A stretch of 21,685 nt of DNA from a phage: NCBI GenBank assembly GCA_037431425.1, contig GCA_037431425.1_4129.5. One strand, written 5' to 3'. Shown piece after piece: positions 2,424-3,669 of the stretch. A model generated the notes under the pieces. It worked only from the letters and a program-made list of their open reading frames with translations, did no database searches and was not told where the DNA came from. A program made the position numbers and the translations under genes. Within the stretch, counting starts at the first letter, position 1. Each line of letters begins with the position of its first letter.

Positions 2424-2537
2424 ATGCTTGAAGAAGATTTGGGTGTTTATTAACAAGAAATCGACGTGAACAAAGAACCAAAATACAAGCCTAATGGCTT
2501 CTGGGAACGTCTCTTTGATTGGCTGATGGGGGAGTGA
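2424..2537 (+). repeat. copy A of a duplicated ~110-bp cassette (small ORF interrupted by in-frame TAA)
   Basis: Shares GAAGAAGATTnGGGTGTTT, an identical 17-mer GGCTTCTGGGAACGTCT (2496-2512) and GATTGGyTGATGGGGGA with copy B at 3556-3669. Encodes MLEEDLGVY-stop-QEIDVNKEPKYKPNGFWERLFDWLMGE. Its 3' end supplies the G-rich SD of the next gene. Confidence 0.6.
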
Positions 2538-2722
2538 TGGAATATACAATATGTGCTATTATTTGTATCTTAGCTTTAATCGGTGGTGTTGGTGTGATGG
2601 TTTATTGTGATGCAGAACCCAGTAATGAAGTAGGTACAACCATCACATTTAAACCTGGTGTTAAAATTAATGATACCTATTGCTACAATCCAAACACAAA
2701 CCGCTATGAGATTTGTTTATGA
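2537..2722 (+). CDS. small Cys-rich membrane protein (hypothetical)
   Basis: ORF track 2519..2722. ATG 2537 follows GGGGGAG (2528-2534). Predicted TM helix (ICAIICILALIGGVGVMVY) plus four further Cys. Confidence 0.4.
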   Translation: MEYTICAIICILALIGGVGVMVYCDAEPSNEVGTTITFKPGVKINDTYCYNPNTNRYEICL

Positions 2723-3126
2723 GAACATTCAACATTGTTCATATAATTGAACCGATTGCAGAACATATGAAAAACATAAGTAATAACGAGTCAGGTTTTT
2801 ACTTCAATTTAGATAAACTTCATCGTTATACCAATGTATCTAGTTTTAATCGTGCTAAGAGACTTTATATCCGTATACACAACCTATGGTACAGTGATGA
2901 TACGTTGATGATAGATATCACTGTTGATGAAGACATAAAATTAAGATATATTGACGATTTTAAATCAGATGATATTCGTTCTGGTTCATTACCAATTGAT
3001 GCTTCATATGAAGAATATCTGCAATATCAGTTCATTGATGACACATTTGGCTTTGACTTTGAACTATATAATAGTATAATGAACGTATACCATATATATG
3101 AAAGGCATTTGAATGGACATTCGTAA
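2719..3126 (+). CDS. hypothetical protein, tandem paralogue 1
   Basis: ORF track 2713..3126. ATG 2719 overlaps the upstream stop as ATGA. C-terminus YQFIDDTFGFDFELYNSIMNVYHIYERHL is paralogous to the next ORF. Confidence 0.55.
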   Translation: MRTFNIVHIIEPIAEHMKNISNNESGFYFNLDKLHRYTNVSSFNRAKRLYIRIHNLWYSDDTLMIDITVDEDIKLRYIDDFKSDDIRSGSLPIDASYEEYLQYQFIDDTFGFDFELYNSIMNVYHIYERHLNGHS

Positions 3127-3535
3127 AATACCAAATTTCAACAGCACATTAAGGTTCTTTTCTGAACATGAAATCAGTACTGAAAGACGTGGTTTAGTTA
3201 CATATAATCAACATCGTGTTATGTACACTAATAATTTTCAGGGTACTGTACGAATAAAATTTCGTAATGCGTTAGAAGAGAATGATGAATTGTTAATTTT
3301 ACTAAGAAAAAGTAAGATTGAATTGACATACGCAACTCACCATATTGAAAGTGAGTTGATGTGGCACACCCTATCAAAAAAAGAAGGTTCATTGCCAGTT
3401 GTTGATAATGGTCCTGAAACACTTGATCAGTACATGTTCATTGATGATACATTTAGTATTGACTATCCATCATTTCAGTGTATACTAGATATACATGCAA
3501 AATATTACGACCGTCTACGTGATAGATTAATTTAA
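3113..3535 (+). CDS. hypothetical protein, tandem paralogue 2
   Basis: 140-aa ORF with GAAAGG upstream. C-terminus YMFIDDTFSIDYPSFQCILDIHAKYYDRL matches the preceding ORF. Confidence 0.6.
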   Translation: MDIRKIPNFNSTLRFFSEHEISTERRGLVTYNQHRVMYTNNFQGTVRIKFRNALEENDELLILLRKSKIELTYATHHIESELMWHTLSKKEGSLPVVDNGPETLDQYMFIDDTFSIDYPSFQCILDIHAKYYDRLRDRLI

Positions 3536-3546
3536 TTGGAGGCATT

Positions 3547-3669
3547 GTGATTACAGTGTTAGAAGAAGATTGGGGTGTTTCCGAGCAAGGAACAGATGAA
3601 TATGAATATCCAGAATATCAGCCAAAAGGCTTCTGGGAACGTCTACGTGATTGGTTGATGGGGGAATAA
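3547..3669 (+). CDS. small ORF (~37-40 aa) carried by copy B of the duplicated cassette
   Basis: GTG 3547 or 3556 follows GGAGG 3538-3542. Encodes ...LEEDWGVSEQGTDEYEYPEYQPKGFWERLRDWLMGE, ending TAA 3667-3669 one base before the CCA-enzyme ATG. Intact counterpart of the interrupted copy A. Confidence 0.35.
   Translation: MITVLEEDWGVSEQGTDEYEYPEYQPKGFWERLRDWLMGE

What the first reader, a model, noticed from the sequence alone, without database searches (positions are those of the whole stretch)
2424..3669. Duplicated ~110-bp cassette encoding a small GFWERLxDWLMGE peptide, one copy interrupted
Segments 2424-2537 and 3556-3669 share GAAGAAGATTnGGGTGTTT, an identical 17-mer (2496-2512 / 3628-3644) and GATTGGyTGATGGGGGA. 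Each ends 0-1 nt before the start of an unrelated gene and supplies its G-rich ribosome-binding site. Copy B encodes an intact ~37-40-aa peptide; copy A has the same frame but an in-frame TAA after nine codons. This could be a conserved micro-protein that is translationally coupled to the downstream gene, a remnant of recombination between gene starts, or a small mobile promoter/RBS cassette.
Basis: seen in the sequence. Interest (0 to 1): 0.6.

Follow-up and report, generated by a model that had tools for sequence, protein, structure and literature searches.

The report
Duplicated phage micro-gene, one copy dead
The two ~120-bp repeats are two copies of a conserved 40-amino-acid gene of unknown function in giant Rak2/121Q-like phages: the copy next to the tRNA CCA-adding enzyme gene is intact, and the other is a decaying extra copy that arrived by recombination with a related phage, so this is ordinary gene-family turnover, not a mobile regulatory cassette.

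Summary
Window 2412-2537 (copy A) and 3547-3669 (copy B) are homologous over the whole small ORF: 75% identity over 114 nt without gaps, BLASTN E 5e-20, and a shared 17-mer not expected by chance.

The window is an Asteriusvirus jumbo coliphage, 98.9% identical to phage ph0011.

- **Copy B** is a real gene. It matches phrog_34272 and is annotated as a hypothetical protein in PBECO4 and 121Q. dN/dS is 0.05-0.21. Homologues of 38-76 aa occur across Rak2-like jumbo phages, always between the HPF/RaiA and cca genes.
- **Copy A** occurs only in a sublineage. It lies in a ~680-bp patch that is 91-93% identical to phage JNE01, on a backbone only 62-75% identical. It therefore came in by homologous recombination.
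- JNE01 and Turkey5 lack B, and there A is intact with its own Shine-Dalgarno (SD) sequence. Where both copies exist, A has lost its SD and the family-invariant Trp9. In this window it also carries a TAA, and ph0011 has a further TAG.

I found no promoter, RNA structure or extra copies, so a mobile cassette is not supported. The peptide's function remains unknown. It is acidic and predicted to be mostly disordered with a C-terminal helix. Interest is low to moderate.

The parts
3547..3669 (+). Copy B: intact micro-gene, 40 aa (MITVLEEDWGVSEQGTDEYEYPEYQPKGFWERLRDWLMGE). GTG start, preceded by GGAGG at 3538-3542.
   Evidence: Matches phrog_34272 at E 3e-31 over the full length. Annotated as a CDS in PBECO4 gp034, 121Q gp538 and UE-S1_486. 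dN/dS is 0.05-0.21 among Asteriusvirus copies. Homologues of 38-76 aa found.
2412..2537 (+). Copy A: pseudogene of the same micro-gene. In-frame TAA at 2451-2453, Trp9 changed to Leu, and no Shine-Dalgarno sequence upstream.
   Evidence: The same copy is intact and has GGAG upstream in JNE01 and Turkey5. It is an open ORF with W9L and W31L in Turkey3, Ecwhy_1, WPEC5 and fEgEco12; CMSTMSU carries the same substitutions in a frameshift-extended ORF. ph0011 has two stops.
1950..2626 (+). Recombinant patch of JNE01-like origin (approximate limits). It carries the 3' end of gene 1633-2028, gene 2041-2412, copy A and the 5' half of the membrane-protein gene.
   Evidence: Identity to JNE01 is 91-93% inside the patch, 73-75% to its left and 62% to its right. 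dS is 0.21 inside the patch, against 1.1-2.4 for HPF and cca.
2041..2412 (+). 123-aa gene (TTG start) that travels with copy A. Divergent member of the ~130-aa paralogue family. Its stop overlaps A's ATG (TAATG).
   Evidence: Annotated in ph0011, Turkey3 and JNE01. Absent from 121Q-type genomes. Aligns with the family motif.
2537..2722 (+). 61-aa predicted membrane-protein gene (phrog_4189), a mosaic. The 5' 90 nt are JNE01-like (92%) and the 3' 96 nt are TH47/121Q-like (98%/86%).
2719..3126 (+). P1: 135-aa paralogue (phrog_20693).
3113..3535 (+). P2: 140-aa paralogue (phrog_20693), immediately upstream of copy B.
3671..4783 (+). cca, tRNA nucleotidyltransferase. Its SD-like GGGGGA (3660-3665) lies inside the last codons of copy B.
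   Evidence: Pfam PolyA_pol plus PolyA_pol_RNAbd; sequence.
1559..1587 (+). Sigma-70-like promoter match (TTGACA-17-TATACT) upstream of the gene array. It is the candidate promoter for the operon that contains both copies.
   Evidence: This is a consensus match only.

Best explanation
The two 'cassettes' are two copies of one small protein-coding gene.

**Copy B (3547-3669)** is the functional copy. It is conserved across Rak2/121Q-like jumbo phages. It encodes a 40-aa, strongly acidic peptide with three parts:
- an invariant N-terminal motif, MIxVLEEDWGV;
- a variable acidic linker;
- a C-terminal amphipathic helix, (F/W)W(E/D)(R/K)Lx(D/E)W/F-L.

The gene sits in an early-looking operon of translation and RNA-repair genes: lysozyme, HPF/RaiA, an array of ~130-aa paralogues, the micro-gene, cca, NUDIX and glutaredoxin. 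B has its own strong Shine-Dalgarno sequence. Its last codons contain the Shine-Dalgarno sequence of cca.

**Copy A (2412-2537)** is a redundant second copy. One Asteriusvirus lineage (JNE01-like) carries the micro-gene upstream of a small membrane-protein gene. Another (121Q/TH47-like) carries it upstream of cca. A double crossover moved a ~680-bp JNE01-like patch into a 121Q-like backbone, so the recombinant had both copies. The crossovers lay in the shared flanking genes: the 3' end of gene 1633-2028 and the middle of the membrane-protein gene.

The extra copy then decayed in steps: loss of its ribosome-binding site, W9L and W31L, then TAA in this window, and TAA plus TAG in ph0011.

**Shown:** the homology, the coding constraint on B, the synteny, the mosaic identity profile and the decay steps.

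**Inferred:** the direction of the transfer; that the peptide acts in trans by binding a partner; and that cca translation is helped by ribosomes terminating on B.
For: **Copy B is a real gene.**
- Repeat significance.
- The window belongs to Asteriusvirus.
- B matches phrog_34272 at E 3e-31.
- B is annotated as a CDS in several genomes.
- 36 Asteriusvirus records hold a full-length copy at 82% amino-acid identity or more.
- dN/dS for B versus B is 0.05-0.21, and for JNE01 A versus B 0.07-0.10.

**The family is narrow and stand-alone.**
- 26 homologues of 38-65 aa have invariant E6, E7, W9 and G10.
- An exhaustive HMMER search of 1.84 billion representatives found only 16 proteins, all 38-76 aa, with no fusions to larger domains.
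- Synteny (HPF, paralogue array, micro-gene, cca) holds in 13 distant loci.

**Copy A came in by recombination.**
- Identity of the window to JNE01 is 0.73-0.75 (HPF and gene 1633), 0.91-0.92 (gene 2041, A, 5' half of the membrane gene) and 0.62 (3' half of the membrane gene).
- dS is 0.21 in the patch, against 1.1 for HPF and 2.4 for cca.

**Copy A is decaying.**
- JNE01 and Turkey5 have GGAG 8 nt upstream of A and lack B. All two-copy genomes examined have ATAATATATA in that position.
- Those genomes carry W9L and W31L, or stop codons.
- Turkey3 A versus window A differs by 1 synonymous and 4 non-synonymous changes plus the nonsense codon.
Against: - The direction of patch transfer is not proven. 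A Turkey3-like genome could have been the donor to JNE01.
- The substitution counts in a 41-codon gene are small, so the relaxed-selection estimate (dN/dS about 0.9) has wide error.
- There is no expression evidence for the peptide. In phage fENko-Kae01 the neighbours HPF, cca and NUDIX are flagged as found by LC-MS/MS, but the micro-protein is not.
- The AlphaFold model has low confidence: pLDDT 62, with only a helix at residues 29-38.
- No homologue has a known function.
Confidence: 0.8

Rival explanations
1. The micro-ORF is a cis-acting upstream ORF or leader peptide. Its only role is to control translation of the gene immediately downstream (cca for B, the membrane protein for A).
For: The stop-start distances are 1 nt or less. 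The downstream SD lies inside the last codons. The gene usually lies next to cca.
Against: The peptide sequence itself is conserved. The N-terminal motif is invariant over distant phages, and dN/dS is 0.05-0.2. The downstream gene differs between relatives:
- a membrane protein in JNE01;
- a 355-aa Zn-finger protein in A4 and TH47;
- one to three ~130-aa paralogues in Hallingskeid, L018, L026 and L027.

No significant RNA structure was found (z -0.9 and -0.2). There is no Rfam match. In two-copy genomes the membrane-protein gene persists even though A has lost its SD or is interrupted.
Confidence: 0.08
2. The repeats are copies of a small mobile regulatory (promoter/RBS) cassette that shuffles genes, like the PeSL elements of T4-type phages.
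For: The repeats sit at gene boundaries in a region with many insertions and deletions between relatives.
Against: - There are only two copies in the window, and at most two real copies per genome in the phage collection.
- There is no promoter-like site inside either copy.
- There is no stable hairpin.
- Sequence change follows the codon frame.
- The recombination breakpoints lie in the flanking genes, not in the repeats.
Confidence: 0.02
3. Copy A arose by tandem duplication of B within one genome. Alternatively, the two-copy state is ancestral and other lineages lost one copy. Either way, inter-lineage recombination would not be the origin.
For: The neighbourhood is an array of paralogues that clearly grew by duplication. 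P1 and P2 are recent paralogues.
Against: - A and B are saturated at synonymous sites (dS 0.9-1.3), so they are as old as the split of the Asteriusvirus lineages.
- Nothing flanking A resembles the DNA flanking B.
- The patch that carries A is 5-10 times less diverged from JNE01 than the backbone is. An ancestral two-copy state followed by vertical descent does not predict that.
Confidence: 0.1
4. Copy A is still functional in two-copy phages. It could act as a new variant in Turkey3-type genomes, or as a short C-terminal peptide started at the internal GTG at 2466 in this window.
For: The ORF is open in Turkey3, Ecwhy_1, WPEC5 and fEgEco12. The C-terminal GFWERLFDWLMGE is intact in the window.
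Against: - The open copies are nearly identical to each other, so the open frame says little.
- They lack an SD and have lost the family-invariant Trp9.
- The window and ph0011 carry one and two stop codons respectively.
- No SD precedes the GTG at 2466.
Confidence: 0.05

Closest known systems
phrog_34272 (PHROGs v4, unknown function); GenBank hypothetical proteins PBECO4 gp034 (YP_009150348.1), 121Q gp538 (YP_009102125.1), Munch_219, XaC1_258
   Same: Copy B is a full-length member, E 3e-31 over positions 1-40 of 40. It has the same length and the same position upstream of cca.
   Different: Nothing differs for B. Copy A is a degenerate paralogue. In ph0011 neither copy is annotated.
Small phage-encoded binding peptides with an amphipathic helix, e.g. 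lambda CIII (54 aa, inhibitor of FtsH) or T4 Stp (26 aa)
   Same: It is small and stand-alone, sits in an early-operon context, and has a predicted amphipathic helix. Conservation is concentrated in short motifs separated by a variable linker, as expected for a peptide that docks on a partner.
   Different: There is no significant sequence relationship. The only trace is E 0.073 between the Munch homologue and the CIII PHROG. No partner or activity is known. The resemblance comes from my own knowledge of those proteins and is only an analogy.
PeSL mobile regulatory cassettes of T4-type phages (Arbiol et al. 2010, cited from memory)
   Same: They are short repeated sequences at gene boundaries in a variable region of a large myovirus genome.
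   Different: PeSLs are non-coding promoter plus stem-loop units present in many copies, and they serve as the crossover sites. Here the repeat is a coding gene in two copies with no promoter or hairpin, and the crossovers lie in the flanking genes.
Mosaic gene exchange by homologous recombination between co-infecting phages, followed by pseudogenisation of a redundant paralogue
   Same: This is exactly the pattern seen: a patch with discordant divergence, bounded by conserved flanks, followed by decay of the redundant copy.
   Different: The outcome is a little unusual. The duplication arose because the two parents kept the same gene on opposite sides of a shared gene.

Membership tests
phrog_34272 micro-protein family | Significant full-length match to the family HMM | tested here: met
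   B: E 3.2e-31, residues 1-40 on profile positions 1-40 of 40. JNE01-type A: E 1.9e-26. Munch homologue: E 1.9e-05.
phrog_34272 micro-protein family | Invariant N-terminal LEEDWG motif and C-terminal aromatic amphipathic helix | tested here: met
   B has both. E6, E7, W9 and G10 are invariant in 26 sequences. Copy A in the window has W9L and a stop at codon 14, so it does not meet this feature.
phrog_34272 micro-protein family | Position between the HPF/RaiA and cca genes, inside the array of ~130-aa paralogues | tested here: met
   for relatives; for the window.
PeSL-like mobile promoter/RBS cassette | Contains a promoter | tested here: not met
   No sigma-70-like match lies inside 2412-2537 or 3547-3669. 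The site at 2368-2396 lies upstream of A, inside gene 2041-2412. The total number of matches equals the shuffle expectation. Phage-specific promoters are not covered by this scan.
PeSL-like mobile promoter/RBS cassette | Stable stem-loop | tested here: not met
   Fold z-scores are -0.94 (B) and -0.16 (A).
PeSL-like mobile promoter/RBS cassette | Many copies flanking unrelated genes | tested here: not met
   Two copies in the window. At most two real copies per genome in 36 Asteriusvirus records.
Leader peptide / attenuator | Fixed position directly upstream of the regulated gene, with alternative RNA structures | tested here: not met
   The downstream gene varies. There is no significant structure and no Rfam hit.
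Lambda CIII family | Significant sequence match | tested here: not met
   Only E 0.073 for one homologue and nothing for the window protein. No Pfam hit.

The most novel reading that the evidence does not exclude
The 40-aa acidic peptide is a required trans-acting factor of the translation and RNA-repair module of Rak2/121Q-like jumbo phages (HPF, CCA-adding enzyme, NUDIX, RNA ligase, 2H phosphoesterase). For example, it could dock on a host or phage RNA-processing or ribosome-associated protein through its two conserved ends. The pattern across genomes acts as a natural complementation experiment: every genome examined keeps at least one intact copy, and the second copy decays. This suggests one copy is needed and sufficient.
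Probability: 0.3. Interest if true: 0.5.

Novelty: new member of a known kind. Interest (0 to 1): 0.25.

Why it matters
The practical value is mainly in annotation. In ph0011, the nearest public genome, the intact micro-gene, its pseudogene and the 61-aa membrane-protein gene are all unannotated.

The case is also a clean, small example of how phage mosaicism can create a duplicate without any duplication event. Two lineages kept the same gene on opposite sides of a shared gene, and recombination brought both copies together. The redundant copy then decayed step by step.

The micro-protein family is conserved across a whole clade of jumbo phages and has no known function. That makes it a reasonable but not urgent target for micro-protein studies.

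Tried and rejected
- **Homology starting at the cassette edge.** In one search, matches of many relatives began at query position 395 (window 2423). I first read this as homology starting at the edge of the cassette. One search showed it is an artefact: in those one-copy genomes, copy B is simply matching A.
- **Micro-gene as a shortened ~130-aa paralogue.** I tested this because P2 ends in DRLRDRLI and B has ERLRDWLM. Profile-profile comparison gave no relationship (probability 0.15%).
- **Function by homology.** Pfam, NCBIfam and a PDB sequence profile gave nothing. PHROGs gave only the 'unknown function' family.
- **Structure.** The AlphaFold2 model built from a 26-sequence alignment was low confidence (pLDDT 62). 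I did not run a fold search because it would be meaningless.
- **RNA element.** No Rfam hit and no significant fold.
- **Literature.** No paper in the library deals with this gene.
- **Fusions to larger proteins.** None among 1.84 billion representatives.

Full report
**What the window is.** The 21.7-kb window is 98.9% identical over its whole length to Escherichia phage ph0011. It is 83-89% identical to other Asteriusvirus jumbo myoviruses such as PBECO4, 121Q and UE-S1. The region of the finding lies in a block of co-directional genes: lysozyme (271-1230), HPF/RaiA (1247-1579), several small genes, cca (3671-4783, Pfam PolyA_pol), NUDIX and glutaredoxin.

**Check of the observation.** The repeat is real.
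- The repeat finder gives 2425-2538 versus 3557-3670: 114 nt, 75% identical, no gaps.
- BLASTN gives 82/106 identities, E 5e-20.
- The 17-mer occurs only at 2496-2512 and 3628-3644. With up to three mismatches allowed, no shuffle of 100 gave two matches.

Read in frame, homology runs from start codon to stop codon.
- Copy A is 2412-2537: ATG AAT ACA ATT ATG CTT GAA GAA ... GGG GAG TGA.
- Copy B is 3547-3669: GTG ATT ACA GTG TTA GAA GAA ... GGG GAA TAA.

A has an in-frame TAA at 2451-2453. The same TAA is present in ph0011, which also has a TAG four codons earlier, so it is a real mutation.

**Copy B is a real, conserved gene.**
- It has GGAGG four bases before its GTG. The start is ATG in 121Q, PBECO4 and A4.
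- It matches phrog_34272 over its whole length (E 3e-31).
- It is annotated as a hypothetical protein in PBECO4, 121Q, UE-S1, Turkey3, A4 and the Salmonella SD phages.
- tblastn finds a full-length copy at 82-97.5% amino-acid identity in 36 Asteriusvirus records. It finds 42-51% identity in Erwinia phage Hallingskeid, Xanthomonas phage XaC1, Salmonella phages Munch, 7t3, SE_PL and PHA46, and Klebsiella phage fENko-Kae01.
- Between Asteriusvirus genomes, synonymous change is high and non-synonymous change is low (dN/dS 0.05-0.21).

**The family is narrow and stand-alone.**
- A profile search of 5.8 billion clustered proteins found 26 members of 38-65 aa.
- An exhaustive HMMER scan of 1.84 billion representatives found only 16, all 38-76 aa, none fused to a larger protein.
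- All share MI-x-(V/M)-LEEDWGV at the N-terminus (E6, E7, W9 and G10 invariant), an acidic linker of variable length, and a C-terminal (S/F)(W/L)(W/Y)(D/E)(K/R)(L/F)... segment.
- AlphaFold2 with this alignment gives a low-confidence model (pLDDT 62) whose only element is a helix at residues 29-38.
- From the sequence, the window's peptide has 11 acidic and 3 basic residues.

**Conserved neighbourhood.** In 13 distant loci the gene lies between HPF/RaiA and cca. It sits inside an array of one to seven ~120-150-aa genes. These genes form one divergent family with a (S/T)EEEFFQxSL motif. All four window genes 1633-2028, 2041-2412, 2719-3126 and 3113-3535 belong to that family.

Most often the micro-gene is immediately upstream of cca, but not always.
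- JNE01 and Turkey5 have a 61-aa membrane-protein gene in between.
- A4 and TH47 have a 355-aa Zn-finger gene in between.
- Hallingskeid, L018, L026 and L027 have one to three paralogues in between.

This argues against a leader peptide dedicated to cca. The shared stop/start junctions and the SD inside the last codons are common in these loci and take different sequences in different lineages.

**Where copy A comes from.** Copy A and the gene before it (2041-2412) are absent from 121Q, PBECO4, UE-S1, A4, TH47 and the SD phages. In those genomes the membrane-protein gene follows gene 1633-2028 directly. A occurs in two kinds of genome.
- **Two-copy genomes:** the window, ph0011, Turkey3, Ecwhy_1, WPEC5, fEgEco12, CMSTMSU and, judging from coverage, EC.P1.
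- **A-only genomes:** JNE01 and Turkey5. They lack P1, P2 and B, and have the order gene 2041 homologue, A, membrane gene, cca.

The identity of the window to JNE01 changes sharply along the region:

| Segment | Identity to JNE01 |
|---|---|
| HPF and gene 1633 | 73-75% |
| ~1950 to 2626 (gene 2041, A, first 90 nt of the membrane gene) | 90-92% by segment (up to 93% in sliding windows) |
| Last 96 nt of the membrane gene | 62% |

That last 96-nt stretch is instead 98% identical to TH47 and 86-88% identical to 121Q and PBECO4.

Synonymous divergence tells the same story. dS is 0.21 for gene 2041 and 0.22 for A, against 1.1 for HPF and 2.4 for cca. So a ~680-bp patch was exchanged between otherwise distant backbones. 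The crossovers lay in the conserved 3' end of gene 1633-2028 and in the conserved middle of the membrane-protein gene.

JNE01 A differs from B by dS 1.0-1.3 with dN/dS 0.07-0.10. That is the level expected for orthologues in the two backbones. The simplest reading is that each lineage had one micro-gene, on opposite sides of the membrane-protein gene, and the recombinant inherited both. The direction of transfer is inferred, not proven.

**Decay of the redundant copy.**
- In JNE01 and Turkey5, the sole copy keeps GGAG eight bases upstream and all family-invariant residues (MN(T/I)IMLEEDWGVSEQGTDEYKEPEYKPKGFWERLFDWLMGE).
- In every two-copy genome examined, that SD is replaced by ATAATATATA.
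- In every two-copy genome examined, invariant Trp9 is Leu or a stop.
- Turkey3, Ecwhy_1, WPEC5, fEgEco12 and CMSTMSU also have W31L.
- The window has TAA at codon 14.
- ph0011 has TAG at codon 10 plus the same TAA.
- Within the patch, identity to JNE01 dips at A: 0.80-0.88 in sliding windows over A (0.88-0.90 for the whole segment), against 0.92-0.93 on either side.
- Turkey3 A and window A differ by one synonymous and four non-synonymous changes plus the nonsense codon.

The counts are small, but every line of evidence points the same way. A is a pseudogene here. All 36 Asteriusvirus records keep a full-length copy.

**Alternatives tested.**
- *Mobile promoter/RBS cassette.* This is not supported: two copies only, no promoter-like site inside the cassette, no significant RNA fold (z -0.94 and -0.16), no Rfam family, and breakpoints outside the repeats.
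- *Derivation from the ~130-aa paralogues.* This is not supported by profile comparison.
- *Known function.* None could be attached: no Pfam, NCBIfam or PDB match, and the PHROG is 'unknown function'. No paper found deals with the gene.

**How it most likely works.** The operon is probably transcribed from the sigma-70-like promoter at 1559-1587 (consensus match only). B is translated from its own SD. Ribosomes terminating at 3667-3669 are 1 nt from the cca ATG, with GGGGGA five bases upstream, so some coupling is plausible. This is inferred.

The peptide has two conserved ends, a variable acidic linker and predicted disorder apart from one helix. It most likely acts in trans by docking on a partner protein. 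The gene neighbourhood suggests a partner in translation or RNA repair, but I have no direct evidence for any partner.

**Verdict.** The feature is an ordinary case of a small conserved phage gene plus a recombination-derived pseudogene copy. The family is already catalogued (phrog_34272) but uncharacterised.

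Noticed in passing
window 1633-3535 (genes 1633-2028, 2041-2412, 2719-3126, 3113-3535): The genes between HPF and cca form an array of divergent ~120-150-aa paralogues sharing a C-terminal (S/T)EEEFFQxSL...Y motif. Copy number varies from 1 to 7 in related jumbo phages. There is no Pfam match; the PHROGs are 20693 and 36582.
   Followed up: partly
window 3509-3532 versus 3637-3660: The last 8 codons of P2 (DRLRDRLI) match codons 31-38 of copy B (ERLRDWLM) in frame at 19 of 24 nt, including an identical 12-mer CGTCTACGTGAT. 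Profile comparison of the two families shows no relationship. It could be chance, a small gene conversion, or convergence of amphipathic helices.
   Followed up: partly
window 2041-2080 versus 2537-2576: The first ~40 nt of gene 2041-2412, including its TTG start, resemble the first ~40 nt of the membrane-protein gene at about 67% identity. BLAST alignments of 121Q-type genomes run through this stretch. It may be a trace of an older rearrangement.
   Followed up: no
L001 (ph0011), corresponding to window 2412-2722 and 3547-3669: The nearest public genome annotates no CDS for the 61-aa membrane-protein gene, copy A or copy B. ph0011 also has a 7-nt insertion just upstream of copy A.
   Followed up: yes
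L010 2649-3716 (phage A4); same place in L009 (TH47): A 355-aa gene with a treble-clef Zn-finger domain (DUF4379, E 2e-07) is inserted between the micro-gene and cca in A4 and TH47 only. It looks like a mobile, homing-endonuclease-like insertion.
   Followed up: partly
L003 2186-2300 (Salmonella phage SD-15_S21): The Salmonella Asteriusvirus phages have deleted P1 and most of P2. What remains is a 33-aa ORF, annotated as a CDS, which corresponds to the C-terminus of P2.
   Followed up: partly
window 14770-14857 and 15555-15642: An 88-nt direct repeat at 73% identity, 785 nt apart (family D3). It probably marks paralogous neighbouring structural genes; tail tube proteins are annotated several times in relatives.
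   Followed up: no
window 159-186: A perfect sigma-70 consensus (TTGACA-16-TATAAT with an upstream TG) lies upstream of the lysozyme gene.
   Followed up: no
L007 (phage CMSTMSU, UNVERIFIED record): Both micro-ORFs run on into the downstream genes, and cca is split into several CDSs. This indicates many frameshift errors in that record. Its '4 places' should not be read as extra copies.
   Followed up: partly
window 2029-4000 versus Turkey3 (L006): Divergence between the window and Turkey3 is very uneven: dS 0.015 in gene 2041-2412 but 0.70 in cca and 0.87 in HPF. The patch carrying copy A has therefore been exchanged among several backbones.
   Followed up: partly
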